A stretch of DNA of 54,250 nucleotides, taken from the IMG/VR virus record IMGVR_UViG_3300027589_000005, positions 1-54,250 of that record, one strand, 5' to 3'. This DNA comes from a virus (lineage: Duplodnaviria > Caudoviricetes). The notes beneath the pieces are model-generated. The model was given only the letters and a program-made list of their open reading frames with translations, was not told the origin of the DNA and did not search any database. Position numbers and translations under genes: made by a program. This document shows, one piece after another, positions 31,173 through 52,052 of the stretch; position 1 is the first letter of the stretch; each line of letters begins with the position of its first letter.

Positions 31173-31197
31173 CCCCCTTCGGGGGGTGTGTTCTTTG
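31173..31197 (+). promoter_or_regulatory. Putative hairpin promoter upstream of the RNA polymerase gene (representative of about 20 copies)
   Basis: CCCCC-TTC-GGGGG...GTTCTTT|G; see findings. Confidence 0.6.
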
Positions 31198-31258
31198 TCA
31201 CGAGGAAATCCGCAATCCCGCGGGAAGTACTCACAACCTCTGTTCCATAAGGAGTTAT

Positions 31259-34200
31259 ATGGAACCAGAAGTTGCGACCGAGATGGTCGCTTCGGTGCCG
31301 AGTGCACCGCCTCGAGCGGCTTTGCCCGCTATTTTGCGGCTTGATACCAAGGCCGCCGCCTTCGTCAAGGCGAAGCTGCAGAAGGAGATCTGCAAAGCCC
31401 GTCCCGAGCTCAAGCGCGTGGACTGGGAAGAGTTCTCCCTGGAGCACATTCTGGACGGTCTCATTCCTGGGGTGAACCGGGAAAAGTTCCTTCCTTGGAA
31501 GGACGTCGTCCTTAAGACGCTTATCGCGTCATACCAAGCGTCTCTGCAGCACAAGCAGAGCGCATTTGTTCAGCAGGCTAACAACGCCTCGCTGTACGTG
31601 CCGGCTGTAGTGATTCGTTGCAAGACGAAGACCTCCAGCAAGCGTGAGCAGAAGAAGAACGGCTCCGGCTGGATCTCCGAGCTTATGCTGCGCCGGCTCA
31701 TTTCCAAGCTCCTCGGCAAGCGTGCCGAGCGTGGAACGGAATGGATCACGTCCATCGTCAACGCAGCGAGCGATAAGCACCTCATTGGTGTTGAGGCAGA
31801 ACGCGGTCTTCAGGCTCCTGGCCTGTTGCACGCCGTTGCCCGGTTCGAAGGCGAGTACAATGCGGCTTCCCCGCCCGTCGCGTCCTTCGAGAACCAAGCT
31901 CTGACTCCTTCTGGCTTCGTCAAGAAGTCCCAGGATGTCATCTTGGCTGGTGGCTACATCCCGGTTGAAGGCCGTAAAGGCTTTGAGCTCGCCGGGATTA
32001 ATGGCAAGCCCTCGTGGTATTTTGATGGTCTCGTGCGTACCTTCGGGGATGCCGTGGCCTTCATGAGCTACGTGCTGAGCTTGACCAGCCCCATTTTGCC
32101 CAACGGCTTCGTTCCTAACCTGGACATTACGTTCAAGGAAAAGGTTCTCGAATTGCCGGACGGCGTTTCCCTGCCTGCGGGTGTTGATGGCTCTGGTACC
32201 TACCATCCTCACACACCTGAGCTCCAGGCATTTCTAGCGTCCAACATGGCGCTCATCGGTGGTGGCCGCAAGACCTATCCCGTTATCCAGATTCGGGTTT
32301 GGAACCCCGGATGCACGGAGACGGAGGGTCTATTTGCTAAGGGCCTGCTCGTTCCCGACATGAAATCCTTCGATGATCAGGGTAACCCTGGCATCGTTCT
32401 GGGCTTGAACCAGATTAAGGGTGTCATGAAGGAAAACGTGGAGGTCAAGCAAGCGCTGGCCACTAATGGCAGTGTGGTCCTCAAGGGCCACATGGGCTGC
32501 ATGAAGGTGTGGCGAGAGCAGAGCACGCTGAAAAGCTGCTTTGAGCTCCTGCAGCTCGTGGAGTCCACGCCTGAGACCGAAGCCGCCGTCGAGGCGCTCG
32601 TCGTGGCTACCTTCGACTCCATGCGGAAGAAGGGTCCACGCGCACTCGTCAACGTCTCGTCTGGTGGCAACACCACGCTCGAGCGTTTGATTGAGCTTGT
32701 GCTCAAGGCTGAGGAGATGGGTGTTCTTATCCCTGATCCGAAGACCGCCGAGCTCCGACCTGTCCAGATGATGGACATCAAGGCCGTTAGGACCATGGCA
32801 ATGGATAAGCTCCGTCGCCGCCTGTACAACGCAGCGAATGGTACTGGCTTTGAGGGGAACCAGGTCGTGATCATCATGGACGCGTCTGTCAAGCGCGGCC
32901 ATGTGGTGATTGGCAGTACCACTGTGGAGACACCCCCTGTGGGCGAACCCGTTGGTACTTGGCGATTCCCCGCCATTCTGGCTCAGAGCCTCAAAACTCT
33001 GATTGTCCAGGAGCCTTCCGAGCACATGCTCATCGTGGATGCCAACGGCGAAAGCTGCTTGGTTCCTTACTCAGCGTTCATGAACCCTGCGGACGTGACA
33101 GACCTGCAGGGCGACGACGATGGCGACATCGCGGCGTGGACGACCAACCCCGACGTCTTGACGCTCGCTTCGAATCTTGTGGATACCCGCAAGTATCGGA
33201 TTGAGCCGGATGGCGAGAAGGTTAAGATCACCAGTGAAAACTTGGGTGATTATGCTGAGTACCTGTCCACGGATCCCATGGGTCCTGTGGGTCAGGCGAC
33301 TGTGGCTCAGGCTCGGTTCTATGAGCTCGCAGCCATCAGCCGTTCCCTCTACGCAGCTTACCGCAAGATGGCTGCAGCAAACGCGAAGGCGAGCAAGGGT
33401 GCGAAAGCATCTGAGAACGACAAGCGTATGCCTGAGGGCTCGGAGGCCTGGGGTCTCGAACAGTGGGAAGTTTATTGCCGCGAGGCGATTGACTCCCTGT
33501 CCGAAGAGCATCTGGCTGCCTTCGATGTGGGCTGGTTGGCCTACCGGGCAAAGGCCTATAACTGGGCCCGCGCCTTTGGCGTCTTCATCCAGGAGTGCAT
33601 CGATCGCGCCAAGCGGTTCGTGCGCTGGACTGATATCCCGAAGCTCGCTAGCATGGGCGACGAGGGTTGGGCCACCATTGGTGACAGCCAAGAGCTGTAT
33701 TGCCATTGGTCCTGGGACGCTGAAGGGCGTCGTTATCCCTGGAAGCATCCGGGGCTGGCTGGTTCGCGCACCAGTCACTACCTCCCGTTGTCGGAGAGCC
33801 AGCTGCGTACCAAGCAGCCGCTTGAGCTCCTTGAGGAGTTCACCAAAGCTGCGAAGAAGTCGCTTGGTTACGACCAGGTGAACGACGCAGTTCGTTGGCG
33901 CCGTAACGTGACTGTTAAGGGCGAGATGCTTCAGAAGCGGATCGACCCTGACAACTTCCACCCGCAGAGCAAACGCCCGGGGTTGGTTGAGGTAGCGTTT
34001 AGCGCAACTCAGAAGGCGTGGGAGCTGTTGAAGGGCCACTTCAACATCCCCAACGAGGGAGCCGATTTGTCGGACCTCGTGGAGCGTATGCTTGACCGGC
34101 AGGAAGAAGCTGGCAAGGCTCCCGCTCGCCTGACCATCGGCAACAACAAGGTGTCGTGGGCGGATTTCATCCGTGCCATGAAACTGCAGGCCCGTGAGGA

Positions 34201-50785: not shown

Positions 50786-51610
50786 ATGACCTCGACCAAG
50801 CCCAGCACCCGTCCCTCGAAGAAGCTGGCCCTGATGGCCAACCTGACCCCGATCCTCCTCACGCTCAGCGCTCGGACGGAGCAGATCAACGGGCCCATCA
50901 AGGCGGGCAAAGCCAGCATCAACGCCGAGATCGCACACAACCGCGCCCAGATCGAGGCGGCCGAAGAGCGCCGCGCCGCGGCCAAGGAGCGCAACGACAA
51001 GGCCTTCGGCACCCTCCGGGCCGAGACCGCCTCCCTCAAGAAGAGCCTGAGCGAGGCCTCCGAGGGCCGGACCGCCGAGCAGATCGTGACGGCAAAGAGC
51101 TTCGCCGCCCAGCTCGAGGCCGTCAACAAGAAGTGGGACGATCTCGTCGCCTCCAGCCGGCAGGAGATGTTCGACATCTCCCGGAACATCCGGCACCACC
51201 ACAGCGCCATCCGGGCGCTGAACGGGCTCATGGAGGGCATCGCCTTCGGTGAGCAGTACGAAGAGGGCCCCTCCAGCGCCGCGGTCGAGATCGTCCGCAA
51301 GGCGGTGTTCGAAGCCAACGGGCGGGTGCTTCGAACCCTGACCAGCGCCTCCCACGGTGGCTGCGGCATGCCGCGGCGTGAGGACGGTACCTTCGGGGGC
51401 CTCGCGGCCTTCGTCAGCAACGGCAGCATCGTCAAGCTCGAGACCGCTGAGCGGGCCGAGCTCATGAACGTCGTCGGGACCCTCAAGGCGATCGGCTGCG
51501 TGTTCAAGGGTGAGGACCGCGCGCCCATCTGGGCCGTCCTGGAGGCTGCGTACAGCAGCGACCGGGCCACGGCGCAGGTCGAAGCCGCCGCCAACACGGT
51601 GGCCTCTTGA
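50786..51610 (+). CDS. Coiled-coil protein
   Basis: GGAG RBS; very high GC3; start revised so that it does not overlap the tmRNA. Confidence 0.8.
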   Translation: MTSTKPSTRPSKKLALMANLTPILLTLSARTEQINGPIKAGKASINAEIAHNRAQIEAAEERRAAAKERNDKAFGTLRAETASLKKSLSEASEGRTAEQIVTAKSFAAQLEAVNKKWDDLVASSRQEMFDISRNIRHHHSAIRALNGLMEGIAFGEQYEEGPSSAAVEIVRKAVFEANGRVLRTLTSASHGGCGMPRREDGTFGGLAAFVSNGSIVKLETAERAELMNVVGTLKAIGCVFKGEDRAPIWAVLEAAYSSDRATAQVEAAANTVAS

Positions 51611-51912
51611 TGAACGCCCAGAGCCTGGAGGGCGACCTTATCGCCCTCAACCCGTTCAGCTTGGCTCTGGGCAAGGTGATCGGAGGCATGGCTCTCATCG
51701 GCCTCGTCCTCTGGTTCTTCGGCGCCGAGCAGGTTGGGACGCTCTTGCTCTACATCCTCTTCCCCATCCTCATGGTGGTGGCGGGTGTCGCCCTCTTTGG
51801 GGGCGGCTCCGCTGAGATGTGGAGCATGTCGGCCCTCAGGGAAGGCTTCAAGCAAGGCGTCAAAGACGCCCGAGCAAGGCCCCAAGAGCCCAGCTACGAG
51901 TACGAGCACTGA
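51610..51912 (+). CDS. Two-TM membrane protein
   Basis: TGATG coupling; hydrophobic helices. Confidence 0.75.
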   Translation: MNAQSLEGDLIALNPFSLALGKVIGGMALIGLVLWFFGAEQVGTLLLYILFPILMVVAGVALFGGGSAEMWSMSALREGFKQGVKDARARPQEPSYEYEH

Positions 51913-52052
51913 CTCCCTGACGCCCCTCCACTCACAGTGGGGGGGCGTTGTTTCTGGGGCCCTTCGGGCCTTGTCTTCAGTGAGGGCATTCAGCTCTCTT
52001 GCAGCCGGTTTCGGCCAACCCAATGCGCCCCTGAGAGGGCAATGGAAAGAAG

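What the first reader, a model, noticed from the sequence alone, without database searches (positions are those of the whole stretch)
31173..51985. About 20 copies of a covarying triloop mini-hairpin plus RTTCNNT|G: candidate hairpin promoters for a phage RNA polymerase
Seen: most cassettes from 31 to 52 kb are preceded by stem-TNC-stem' and then, usually 8-10 nt after the loop, TTCNNT and a purine. That purine begins the RBS, a leader helix or an ncRNA. The stem varies with compensation while the C-TNC-G core is fixed: GCCC/GGGC (38857, 39645), GGCCC/GGGCC (39284, 41573, 45157, 50082), CCCCC/GGGGG (31173, 38594, 40540), CCGC/GCGG (37263, 47643), GAGC/GCTC (40785), AGGC/GCCT (46198), GC/GC (40106) and CGC-TCC-GCG (36388). 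Several copies cannot form an RNA C(UUCG)G tetraloop and are too short to be terminators. On the template strand they read C-GAA-G or C-GGA-G. Established: d(GCGAAGC)-type GNA triloops are unusually stable DNA hairpins, and the N4 virion RNAP recognises a template-strand GNA triloop hairpin. Inference: this is a structure-read promoter. The only RNAP in the window is two-barrel rather than T7/N4-type, so the pairing would be new if that enzyme is the reader.
Basis: partly seen in the sequence, partly recalled or inferred. Interest (0 to 1): 0.9.

Follow-up and report, generated by a model that had tools for sequence, protein, structure and literature searches.

The report
Hairpin start signals, phage two-barrel polymerase
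An uncultured freshwater phage puts the same tiny hairpin plus a short fixed box in front of about 25 gene units that follow its own unusual RNA polymerase gene; these are most likely that polymerase's start signals, a hairpin-type promoter shown so far only for an unrelated enzyme of coliphage N4.

Summary
By a strict definition there are 23 copies, plus 2 looser ones, all on the + strand between 31173 and 51982. The - strand of that region has none, and shuffles give 0.43. Each copy is a 2-6 bp GC stem, an invariant C-T(T/C)C-G apex, K-T-N-N-R, TTC-N-N-T, then a purine. The palindrome is in triloop register. The hairpins are far weaker as RNA than the phage's own terminators, which carry tetraloops.

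The element heads transcription units and often sits directly behind a canonical terminator. It is kept in a relative whose polymerase is 32% identical, where it is confined to 19 kb of a 147-kb genome.

ORF 31259-35551 folds as a QDE-1/P23-45 gp64-type two-barrel RNA polymerase. A second signal, T-tract+TTCTATGG, fills 24.4-31.2 kb and also precedes the polymerase gene.

Best reading (0.55): class-2 promoters of the phage polymerase, with a template-strand C-GNA-G DNA mini-hairpin as in N4. No transcript 5' ends are available. Rivals are a terminator-plus-promoter composite and an RNA processing site. This scan has noted similar cases on other DNA; I found no such promoter in print.

The parts
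31173..31197 (+). Class-2 element copy 1: CCCCC-TTC-GGGGG, GTGTG, TTCTTT, then G. It lies 62 nt before the polymerase ATG and 35 nt after terminator 31117-31138. A class-1 core (TTTTATGG, 31155-31162) lies between the terminator and the hairpin.
   Evidence: Conserved in G001 and L021.
31259..35551 (+). Single-chain two-barrel RNA polymerase, 1430 aa, with an invariant FMNPxDVTDLQGDDDGD motif.
   Evidence: The AF2 model of residues 270-1010 has pLDDT 90.5. Foldseek top hits: QDE-1 5e-10, P74-26 gp62 and P23-45 gp64 4-7e-8, crAss phi14:2 gp66 2e-6. Family member P0035 hits Pfam RdRP PF05183 at 1e-5.
35754..35775 (+). Class-2 copy: CCC-TTC-GGG, 3-bp stem.
35958..35982 (+). Class-2 copy: CCCCC-TTC-GGGGG. 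The predicted RNA starts GGAGGA.
36388..36409 (+). Class-2 copy: CGC-TCC-GCG. The orthologous sites in G001 and L022 read CAC-TTC-GTG behind the same upstream flank, a compensatory stem change.
37015..37038 (+). Class-2 copy: CCCCC-TTC-GGGGG, then TTCTATGG.
37263..37285 (+). Class-2 copy: CCGC-TTC-GCGG. No tetraloop register is possible.
37793..37815 (+). Class-2 copy: CCCC-TCC-GGGG. It is ambiguous, because a 6-bp stem in tetraloop register is also possible.
38594..38618 (+). Class-2 copy: CCCCC-TTC-GGGGG.
38857..38879 (+). Class-2 copy: GCCC-TTC-GGGC. The predicted +1 sequence GGAGATTG (from 38879) pairs with CAATCTCC at 39161-39168, just before terminator 39168-39195. Together they bound an RNA of about 290 nt with no ORF.
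39284..39308 (+). Class-2 copy: GGCCC-TTC-GGGCC, then TTCTATGG.
39645..39667 (+). Class-2 copy: GCCC-TTC-GGGC. The RNA would start GGAGGT, with the ATG 10 nt after +1.
40106..40127 (+). Loose class-2 copy: GC-TTC-GC, a 2-bp stem, with the full downstream box TTCTAT then G.
40540..40563 (+). Class-2 copy: CCCCC-TTC-GGGGG, 11 nt after canonical terminator 40511-40528.
40785..40807 (+). Class-2 copy: GAGC-TTC-GCTC. The RNA would start GGAGGT, with the ATG 12 nt after +1.
41573..41597 (+). Class-2 copy: GGCCC-TTC-GGGCC.
42766..42786 (+). Class-2 copy: CCC-TTC-GGG, TTC at +10.
43138..43158 (+). Class-2 copy: CCC-TTC-GGG, TTC at +10.
43752..43776 (+). Class-2 copy: ACCCCC-TTC-GGGGGT, +1 is A.
44518..44540 (+). 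Class-2 copy: CCCC-TTC-GGGG. It is ambiguous, because a 7-bp stem in tetraloop register (GGACCCC/GGGGTCC) is also possible. +1 is A, with the ATG 11 nt later.
45157..45181 (+). Class-2 copy: GGCCC-TTC-GGGCC.
46198..46220 (+). Class-2 copy: AGGC-TTC-GCCT, with the ATG 12 nt after +1.
46789..46814 (+). Loose class-2 copy: CCCC-TTC-GGGG with TTC at +14. A TTG start codon lies 11 nt after +1.
47643..47665 (+). Class-2 copy: CCGC-TTC-GCGG, 12 nt after canonical terminator 47611-47630, with the ATG 11 nt after +1.
50082..50106 (+). Class-2 copy: GGCCC-TTC-GGGCC. Its predicted +1 (50106) lies 192 nt before the tmRNA gene at 50298-50698.
51958..51982 (+). Class-2 copy: GGCCC-TTC-GGGCC, 11 nt after the terminator-like hairpin 51925-51946.
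24401..31162 (+). Array of about 14 class-1 signals (T-tract + TTCTATGG or a close variant), most directly behind canonical terminators. They share the TTC-N-N-T-G core with class 2 but have no mini-hairpin.
   Evidence: The same array lies upstream of the polymerase gene in G001.

Best explanation
The element is a phage-specific promoter of a second class. It has two parts. The first is a short inverted repeat that extrudes as a DNA mini-hairpin, whose template strand reads C-G(A/G)A-G. The second is a fixed single-register box, K-T-N-N-R-T-T-C-N-N-T. RNA starts at the purine after the box, about 17-18 nt downstream of the loop centre.

The most likely reader is the phage's own single-chain two-barrel RNA polymerase (31259-35551). 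That gene would first be expressed from the class-1 signal at 31155 (T-tract + TTTTATGG). The enzyme would then transcribe its own gene and the roughly 25 units behind it.

Shown: the anatomy, strand and regional specificity, conservation with compensatory changes, position relative to terminators and gene starts, and the fold of the polymerase.

Inferred: that RNA starts there, that the hairpin acts in DNA on the template strand, and which enzyme reads it.
For: 1. Non-chance and one-stranded. 23 strict copies on the + strand against 0 on the - strand in 31001-52200; shuffles give a mean of 0.43 and a maximum of 4.

2. Promoter-like position.
- Copies at 40540, 47643 and 51958 begin 11-12 nt after a canonical terminator stem, and 31173 begins 35 nt after one. 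That leaves no room for another promoter.
- The base after the box is a purine in 25 of 25. Eleven of 25 predicted RNAs begin with GGAGG within 7 nt, and in 6 a start codon follows 10-12 nt after +1.
- The RNA at 38879 pairs its first 8 bases with 39161-39168, just before a terminator.
- Genes without the element mostly abut the gene before them (crude gene calls).

3. Not the terminator. Mean RNA energy is -5.1 against -18.0 kcal/mol for 30 canonical terminators of the same window. Those listed by the scans carry UNCG- or GNRA-type tetraloops among others.

4. Structure, not sequence. The stems covary. Pair 2 is CG 31, GC 7, AU 3 with none unpaired; pair 4 has 13 double changes. The covariation score is 0.49 against 0.12 in shuffles. 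The site 36388 (CGC/GCG) and its counterparts in G001 and L022 (CAC/GTG) lie behind an identical upstream flank.

5. Match to N4 requirements. The invariant positions are the closing C:G pair and the outer loop bases. The middle base is T in 43 of 45 and C in 2 of 45, which is a template purine. According to the N4 review, these are the positions needed for extrusion and stability (closing pair, 5'G and 3'A of the template loop), with the central base A or G (PMC4496689, passages). A review of mini-hairpin DNA gives GCGNAGC as extraordinarily stable and N4 promoter loops as GGA or GAA (PMC13037366, passages).

6. A fixed box. T at -10 is present in 45 of 45 without being imposed; G or A at -7 in 40 of 45; T at -1 in 31 of 45.

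7. Confined to one gene class that starts at the polymerase gene. In the 99%-complete 147-kb relative G001, 15 copies lie at 4.7-23.1 kb on the polymerase strand. Three weak hits with 3-bp stems lie elsewhere.

8. A cascade layout. Class-1 signals fill the region upstream of the polymerase gene here and in G001. In 7 of 8 further viral loci with polymerase homologues, class-1-like signals lie upstream of the gene on its strand; in 6 of these (L023-L027, L029) none lies downstream, and L030 has one at the gene's 3' end (10386). Hairpin-plus-core elements lie downstream. Thermus phage P23-45 has a comparable cascade, with an AT-rich class, a polymerase gene and a GC-rich class, supported there by TSS mapping and ChIP (PMC10770324, passages).

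9. Polymerase fold. No sigma-70 region 2 was found in G000, G001 or G002, with controls ringing in 11 of 14 genomes.
Against: - No transcript 5' ends exist. The one RNA run holds the phage only as contigs, which cannot show starts.
- The TTC-N-N-T-G core also occurs without a mini-hairpin: about 14 class-1 copies, and behind an ordinary terminator at 49467-49496. The hairpin may therefore not be needed for initiation.
- In other lineages of the polymerase family the matching hairpins are 6-14 bp long, or have variable loops followed by T-rich tails. They look like ordinary terminators abutting a start box. Their conserved T-N-A-C loops also fit a named RNA tetraloop family, UNAC (term found in 9 papers, listing only).
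- 9 of 23 strict copies could also fold in tetraloop register, and 44518 and 37793 look like ordinary hairpins with 7 and 6 pairs.
- The wobble test was uninformative. G-T at the first unpaired position occurred in 12 of 40 copies against A-C in 2 of 40, but the 3' flank is itself constrained to T or G.
- DNA folding parameters give both strands the same energy, so the special stability of the template strand rests on the literature and not on a computation here.
- The predicted loop-to-start distance (17-18) differs from N4 (11).
- The polymerase gene carries the element itself, so another enzyme must act first. Who reads class 1 is unknown: only one polymerase homologue was found in G001.
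Confidence: 0.55

Rival explanations
1. Composite of two separate signals. The hairpin acts in RNA, as a terminator, pause site or 3'-end stabiliser of the upstream unit for the phage polymerase, with a loop that this enzyme or a cofactor recognises. Only the K-T-N-N-R-TTC-N-N-T box that follows is the promoter. The fixed spacing would then reflect compaction, with the pyrimidine-rich tail doubling as the upstream part of the promoter.
For: - The same core works without a mini-hairpin in class 1 and behind an ordinary terminator at 49467.
- In L026 and L030 the hairpins have 7-9 pairs, variable loops and T-rich tails 4-6 nt before a TATGA or TTTGAG core. In L024 they have 6-14 pairs.
- P23-45 has termination sites with a conserved 26-nt motif for a phage two-barrel polymerase (PMC10770324, passage).
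- Several window copies follow a stop codon directly, with no other terminator.
Against: - 14 of 25 hairpins are weaker than -5 kcal/mol as RNA, and 7 are at -2.9 or weaker.
- Canonical terminators stand 11-35 nt upstream of 4 copies and within about 130 nt of about 13 copies, which would make a second terminator redundant.
- A terminator between the class-1 core at 31155 and the polymerase ATG would block the polymerase gene.
- The phage's RNA hairpins use tetraloops, whereas this one keeps a triloop with exactly the DNA mini-hairpin signature.
Confidence: 0.2
2. RNA processing site. Long transcripts are cut by a phage or host endoribonuclease that recognises the hairpin and box, releasing mRNAs and ncRNAs that begin at the purine. 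This would resemble RNase III sites between T7 genes, or RegB cutting at GGAG in T4 (both recalled, not checked here).
For: - The element lies between units, on the RNA-sense strand only. It ends exactly where ribosome-binding sites or closed RNA helices begin.
- It also precedes non-coding RNAs, including the tmRNA unit.
Against: - Copies directly behind strong terminators would rarely be transcribed.
- Class-1 sites share the core and the same start position but have no hairpin.
- 3-bp RNA stems of -0.4 to -1.2 kcal/mol are poor RNA targets.
- I did not search the window for a candidate nuclease, so none is known.
Confidence: 0.12
3. Binding site of a regulatory protein, such as an antiterminator loading site or a translational operator, rather than a start or cut site.
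For: A conserved loop on a free stem is typical of protein-recognised hairpins. Many copies abut the Shine-Dalgarno sequence.
Against: - Copies also precede RNAs without an ORF.
- 25 copies at unit boundaries, plus the shared core with class 1 behind terminators, fit start sites better.
Confidence: 0.05

Closest known systems
Early promoters P1-P3 of coliphage N4, read by the virion RNA polymerase (review PMC4496689, passages read; PMC13037366)
   Same: - A short GC-rich inverted repeat with a 3-nt loop.
- The template strand reads C-G(purine)A-G.
- The closing pair and outer loop bases are invariant while the stem sequence is free.
- The element lies upstream of the start, is strand-specific, and sits in the early part of the genome.
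   Different: - The N4 loop centre is at -11. Here it would be at -17 or -18, with an extra fixed box (T at -10, TTC at -6 to -4).
- N4 has 3 copies; this window has 25.
- N4 stems are 5-7 bp; here they are 2-6 bp in the window and up to 7 in G001.
- The N4 reader is a T7-like enzyme. Here the only polymerase found is a two-barrel enzyme.
Promoter classes of Thermus phage P23-45: AT-rich for virion polymerase gp96, GC-rich for non-virion gp64 (PMC10770324, passages read)
   Same: - Single-chain two-barrel phage polymerases; gp64 and its P74-26 homologue are among the best fold matches.
- Two promoter classes, one T/AT-rich and one GC-rich.
- The first class drives the gene of the second polymerase.
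   Different: - The P23-45 motifs are shown only in figures and supplements that I could not see. The word hairpin does not occur in the main text.
- P23-45 has two polymerases; only one was found here and in G001.
- P23-45 has TSS and ChIP data; this phage has none.
21-bp phage-specific promoter candidates of Bacillus thuringiensis phage 0305phi8-36, proposed as targets of its RdRP-family orf99 (PMC2147016, passages read)
   Same: A repeated phage-specific motif in non-coding gaps of the non-structural arm, proposed as the target of an encoded RdRP/two-barrel-type polymerase, in a genome with no recognised sigma factor.
   Different: It is described in the text as a sequence logo, not as a hairpin. 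The phage lineage and motif are unrelated, and it too is untested.
T7-type phage promoters (recalled; geometry as given in PMC4496689)
   Same: A compact signal of about 23 bp that ends at +1 G. It has an upstream binding part and an initiation part, is repeated before many units, and is often followed closely by a ribosome-binding site.
   Different: T7 promoters are read as double-stranded sequence with no inverted repeat, and the enzyme belongs to a different family.

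Membership tests
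N4-type DNA-hairpin promoter | 3-nt loop whose template strand reads 5'-G-(A/G)-A-3', closed by a C:G pair | tested here: met
   45 of 45 copies have C...G closure with T and C at the outer loop positions on the coding strand. The middle base is T in 43 and C in 2, which reads GAA or GGA on the template. The requirement comes from PMC4496689.
N4-type DNA-hairpin promoter | Stem of 5-7 bp whose sequence is free as long as pairing is kept | tested here: inconclusive
   Pairing is kept with compensatory changes. Perfect stems are 2-6 bp in the window: 11 of 25 have 5 or more, and 5 of 25 have 3 or fewer.
N4-type DNA-hairpin promoter | Loop centre at -11 relative to the mapped start | not testable with these tools
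   No TSS data exist. If RNA starts at the purine after TTCNNT, the loop centre is at -16 to -20, and at -17 or -18 in 37 of 45 copies. That would not meet the feature.
N4-type DNA-hairpin promoter | Read by a T7-like (single-subunit, PF00940) virion polymerase | tested here: inconclusive
   PF00940 was not found in G000, G001 or G002, but the control genomes were silent too. Two giant virion-module proteins of G001 gave no polymerase family in Pfam. The only polymerase found is two-barrel.
N4-type DNA-hairpin promoter | Extrusion by negative supercoiling and activation by SSB | not testable with these tools
   This needs biochemistry.
Promoters of phage single-chain two-barrel RNA polymerases (P23-45 type cascade) | The genome encodes such a polymerase | tested here: met
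   Model pLDDT 90.5. Foldseek: QDE-1 5e-10, P23-45 gp64 and P74-26 gp62 4-7e-8, phi14:2 gp66 2e-6, gp96 2e-5.
Promoters of phage single-chain two-barrel RNA polymerases (P23-45 type cascade) | The motif lies at mapped transcription starts and is bound by the enzyme | not testable with these tools
   Only RNA contigs were available.
Promoters of phage single-chain two-barrel RNA polymerases (P23-45 type cascade) | Two motif classes in separate regions, the first class driving the polymerase gene | tested here: met
   Class 1 occupies 24401-31162 and class 2 occupies 31173-51982. Both stand before the polymerase gene, and both are conserved there in G001 and L021. The driving itself is inferred.
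Intrinsic (rho-independent) terminator | Stable GC-rich RNA hairpin followed at once by a U-tract, at the 3' end of a unit | tested here: not met
   Mean energy is -5.1 kcal/mol against -18.0 for the window's canonical terminators. T count in the next 8 nt is 4.3 against 5.6. Canonical terminators already occupy the 3' ends, and 4 copies lie 11-35 nt behind one. A minority of copies (44518, 37793, 43752) would pass a simple terminator scan.
RNA C(UNCG)G tetraloop hairpin | UNCG loop closed by C-G with a stem in that register | tested here: not met
   14 of 23 strict copies have 2 or fewer pairs in that register, and 6 have none. 64% of cells pair in that register against 87% in triloop register.

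The most novel reading that the evidence does not exclude
A QDE-1/YonO-like two-barrel RNA polymerase recognises promoters by shape. It would read a template-strand DNA mini-hairpin with a sheared G:A loop, plus a short start box. That solution is known only from the unrelated T7-like polymerase of N4, so this would be convergent evolution. Across the polymerase family the hairpin loop would change with the lineage (T-N-C here, T-N-A-C in others) while the start box stays. That would make the hairpin a lineage-specific address label that co-evolves with the enzyme.
Probability: 0.4. Interest if true: 0.85.

Novelty: new variant of a known kind. Interest (0 to 1): 0.75.

Why it matters
Promoters of single-chain two-barrel phage polymerases are poorly defined. 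The YonO paper leaves its promoter open (PMC5467207). The crAss-like phi14:2 study found no common motif before early transcripts (bioRxiv 2020.03.07.982082). Only P23-45 has mapped motifs (PMC10770324).

A compact, highly repeated signal next to the polymerase gene gives a directly testable promoter for this enzyme class. The test needs one protein, a 25-nt element and simple stem or loop mutants. If the hairpin is read in DNA, it would be the second known case of a structure-read promoter and the first for a cellular-type active site. It would also be a small orthogonal transcription part for engineering.

Together with class 1, the element provides a map of the early transcription programme of a widespread group of uncultured freshwater myoviruses.

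Tried and rejected
- **Nearest relatives by DNA.** Megablast of 31000-43000 against the phage collection found nothing.
- **Polymerase by sequence alone.** There was no Pfam, PHROG or PDB sequence hit for the 1430-aa ORF. PDB profile searches with A1 and A6 also gave nothing meaningful.
- **First structure model.** The model of residues 231-1430 from 6 sequences was poor (pLDDT 46.7) and I did not use it. The second model, from 87 sequences, was good.
- **tRNA scan.** None found. Rfam found only the tmRNA.
- **Sigma-70-type promoter scan.** It found 8 sites against 8.5 expected, and 3 against 6.8 expected, so there is no excess.
- **RNA evidence.** One metatranscriptome run, X1, held 0.11 of the sampled words as contigs. 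When laid, 30 pieces covered 23 of 30 bins patchily. No starts, ends or joints were usable. Two contigs begin 7 and 11 nt after predicted +1 sites (51989 against 51982; 40818 against 40807), but other contigs break inside genes, so I draw nothing from this.
- **Wobble test for the folding strand.** Uninformative, because the 3' flank is constrained.
- **DNA folding energies.** Identical for both strands, because the parameter set has no bonus for GNA loops.
- **The same C-TTC-G triloop in 8 further viral loci with polymerase homologues.** It is not enriched there. Those lineages carry other loops or none.
- **Second polymerase paralogue in G001.** None found with profile A6. Pfam RdRP did not ring directly on G000-G002.
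- **MAFFT alignment of whole elements (A4).** It shifted the loops by one column, so I used only the fixed-length hairpin alignment A5 for pair counts.
- **Supplements and figures.** I could not see those of PMC10770324 (the promoter logos of P23-45). They may bear on whether its GC-rich promoter contains an inverted repeat.
- **Not done.** I built no covariance model and did no search for a late-gene motif.

Full report
**What the window is.** It is a 54,250-nt fragment of an uncultured virus, with an estimated completeness of 36%. Positions 1-24 kb carry myovirus-type structural genes on the - strand: sheath, major head protein, portal and terminase. GC content there is about 45%. From 24.4 kb onward the genes run on the + strand, and GC content is about 57%. 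A 99%-identical twin contig spans the junction (L008).

**The observation.** I used this strict definition: a T-N-C triloop closed by C-G, at least 3 perfect stem pairs, and TTC starting 10-13 nt after the loop centre. This gives:
- 23 copies on the + strand, all between 31179 and 51964;
- none on the - strand of that region;
- 0.43 expected from 300 dinucleotide shuffles, with a maximum of 4.

Two looser copies (40106, 46789) bring the total to 25.

I anchored 45 copies (25 from the window, 20 from relatives) on TTC. The element then reads: stem-loop, K, T, N, N, R, T, T, C, N, N, T, purine.
- T at -10 is present in 45 of 45, although I never required it.
- The purine is G in 36 and A in 9. 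The purine served as a tie-breaker where two TTC triplets were possible, which is a small bias.

**Loop register.** The palindrome is centred on the middle loop base.
- In an alignment of fixed length, triloop register pairs 87% of cells with a covariation score of 0.49. Tetraloop register gives 64% and 0.22.
- My set required three pairs in triloop register, so I also collected sites without any stem requirement. Of the 23 sites with a triloop stem of 3 or more, 14 have 2 or fewer pairs in tetraloop register. Control sequence yields 1 such stem among 43 sites.
- Two copies (44518, 37793) could equally be ordinary hairpins with 7 and 6 pairs.

**Not the phage's terminators.** The same region is full of canonical terminators. 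The scans list stems of up to 16 pairs, often with UUCG, UACG, GAAA or GCAA loops, followed by TTTGTTTC-like tails. Thirty of these average -18.0 kcal/mol as RNA. The 25 mini-hairpins average -5.1, and seven are at -2.9 or weaker. Four mini-hairpins begin 11-35 nt after such a terminator (31173, 40540, 47643, 51958), and about 13 have one within roughly 130 nt upstream. The usual order is therefore terminator, then mini-hairpin and box, then gene or RNA.

**What follows the box.**
- Eleven of 25 predicted RNAs begin with GGAGG within 7 nt.
- In six of them a start codon lies 10-12 nt after the purine.
- Other copies precede longer leaders or RNAs without an ORF.
- The RNA that would start at 38879 (GGAGATTG) pairs with 39161-39168 (CAATCTCC) directly before a terminator.
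- The predicted start of copy 50082 lies 192 nt before a tmRNA gene.
- By crude gene calls, genes without the element mostly abut the gene before them, so units have one to a few genes.

**A second signal with the same core.** Between 24401 and 31162, about 14 sites read T-tract + TTCTATGG; ten are exact. Most lie directly behind a terminator. One stands at 31155, between a terminator and the first mini-hairpin, so the polymerase gene has both signals in tandem.

**Relatives.** Few close homologues of the large ORF exist.
- A 147-kb viral record, G001, is 99% complete and its homologue is 32% identical. On the polymerase strand it has the class-1 array at 24.3-28.8 kb, the polymerase gene at 23.2-18.8 kb, and 15 mini-hairpin elements at 23.1-4.7 kb. 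Only three weak hits lie in the remaining 120 kb.
- Stems differ there (ACCCCCC/GGGGGGT, CTCC/GGAG, AACCC/GGGTT, GCGCC/GGCGC) while C-TTC-G and the box stay.
- The region before the polymerase gene, aligned between the window, G001 and L021, keeps the class-1 core, the hairpin apex, TTC and the first bases GTCAC. The spacers differ.
- A strain variant, L018, carries a different cassette headed by its own copy.

**The wider polymerase family.** A profile search found 122 proteins, mostly of about 1000 aa. Eight further viral loci encode such homologues, 26-32% identical over 450-600 residues in the seven that my local tblastn detected.
- In 7 of the 8, class-1-like signals (terminator hairpin, T-tract, TA(A/T/C)GG) lie upstream of the polymerase gene on its strand. 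In 6 of these (L023-L027, L029) none lies downstream; L030 has a second one at the gene's 3' end, at 10386.
- Downstream there are hairpins followed after 3-6 nt by TTCWWGG or TATGA-type cores and then the ribosome-binding site.
- In L024, 15 hairpins lie downstream of the gene and none upstream. Their loops are TGAC, TCAC, TAAC or TCGC.
- L023, L025, L027 and L029 have similar T-N-A-C loops.
- L026 and L030 have variable loops.
- L031 has an AT-rich box instead.
- The C-TTC-G triloop itself is not enriched in these loci.

The layout "class 1, polymerase gene, hairpin plus start box" is thus general. The triloop is special to the window's lineage.

**The polymerase.** The ORF has an invariant GDDDGD motif. 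A model of residues 270-1010 built on 87 sequences has pLDDT 90.5. Its best structural matches are:

| Match | Foldseek E-value |
|---|---|
| QDE-1 | 5e-10 |
| P74-26 gp62 and P23-45 gp64 | 4-7e-8 |
| RDR2 | 4e-7 |
| crAss-like phi14:2 gp66 | 2e-6 |
| P23-45 gp96 | 2e-5 |

Multisubunit polymerases follow further down. One family member passes Pfam's RdRP threshold. No sigma-70 region 2 is present in the three records, with positive controls. The search for the T7-type polymerase family was silent in controls too and says nothing.

**Weighing the readings.**

For a promoter:
- the position behind terminators, with no room for another signal;
- the purine start;
- the core shared with a hairpin-less class that also sits behind terminators;
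- restriction to the gene block that begins at the polymerase gene;
- the parallel with P23-45, where an AT-rich class read by a virion enzyme drives the gene of a second two-barrel polymerase that reads a GC-rich class (PMC10770324, passages).

For the hairpin acting in DNA on the template strand:
- The positions that never vary are those the N4 review lists as needed for extrusion and stability, namely the closing pair and the 5' G and 3' A of the template loop. The centre is a purine, as in N4 (PMC4496689).
- GCGNAGC mini-hairpins are extraordinarily stable as DNA (PMC13037366).
- As RNA, many copies are marginal.
- The phage's evident RNA hairpins use tetraloops.

Against:
- There are no 5'-end data.
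- The core functions without the hairpin elsewhere.
- In sister lineages the hairpins look like ordinary terminators, and their loops also fit an RNA tetraloop family (listing only).
- The loop-to-start distance differs from N4.

I therefore put 0.55 on a hairpin-containing promoter, 0.2 on a terminator-plus-promoter composite, 0.12 on a processing site, and 0.05 on another protein-binding role.

**Comparison with what is known.**
- Structure-read hairpin promoters are established only for N4-like virion polymerases.
- The YonO paper leaves its promoter undefined (PMC5467207).
- The phi14:2 preprint reports no common motif before early transcripts.
- Phage 0305phi8-36 has 14 copies of a 21-bp candidate proposed for its RdRP-like orf99, described as a logo and not as a hairpin (PMC2147016).
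- Searches combining hairpin promoter, two-barrel, YonO, crAss-like and phage terms returned nothing that describes a hairpin promoter for this enzyme class. The library lacks most subscription journals.
- This scan has noted analogous hairpin and two-barrel cases in other genomes, one of them a 147-kb phage that may be G001. Those are unchecked notes, and I do not count them as support.

**Verdict.** The finding is a new variant of a known kind and is directly testable with one protein and a 25-nt element.

Noticed in passing
window 24401-31162 (+): About 14 copies of T-tract + TTCTATGG (10 exact), most directly behind canonical terminators. They share the start core with the hairpin class. 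The same array lies upstream of the polymerase gene in G001, and similar T-tract + TA(A/T/C)GG arrays lie upstream of it in 7 of 8 other viral loci.
   Followed up: partly
window 36305-41495 (+): Nine boxes reading (A)ATAAATA follow terminator tails and lie 60-110 nt before a mini-hairpin element. They may be a third signal class.
   Followed up: no
window 24088-42760: A dispersed element of the form TGCCCTTAGGG, a purine-rich spacer, then GGTGGCGCG. It occurs in both orientations, between the AATAAATA box and the mini-hairpin, and also in the divergent gap at 24.1 kb. It looks like a protein-binding site.
   Followed up: no
window 50298-50698 (+): A phage-borne tmRNA gene (Rfam RF00023, 82.7 bits). 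Its unit is headed by the element at 50082.
   Followed up: no
window 38879-39200 (+): An RNA of about 290 nt with no ORF. Its first 8 bases pair with the 8 bases just before its terminator. In the one RNA run laid, a contig with word depth 45 covers 39038-39040, and no ranking can be drawn from that.
   Followed up: partly
window about 24000: GC content steps from about 45% in the structural genes to about 57% in the early region. The junction is also present in the twin contig L008.
   Followed up: no
L018 13629 against window 37793: A 99%-identical strain variant carries a different cassette headed by its own mini-hairpin element. Cassettes appear to be exchanged as units.
   Followed up: no
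L024 10890-15507; L023 11148-12482; L027 11390-18361: In other lineages of the polymerase family, genes downstream of the polymerase gene are headed by covarying hairpins with conserved T-N-A-C loops (template G-T-N-A), followed by TTCWWGG and then the ribosome-binding site. L031 uses an AT-rich box, TATTATAG, 11 times instead.
   Followed up: partly
window 19516-22674 (-): A 1052-aa protein in the structural module with a staphylococcal-nuclease domain at residues 757-869.
   Followed up: no
G001 61255-66570 and 66561-75476: Giant virion-module proteins of 1772 and 2972 aa. The first holds a DADGD string and the second holds a peptidase M23 domain. Neither gave a polymerase family in Pfam, so who reads the class-1 signals stays open.
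   Followed up: partly
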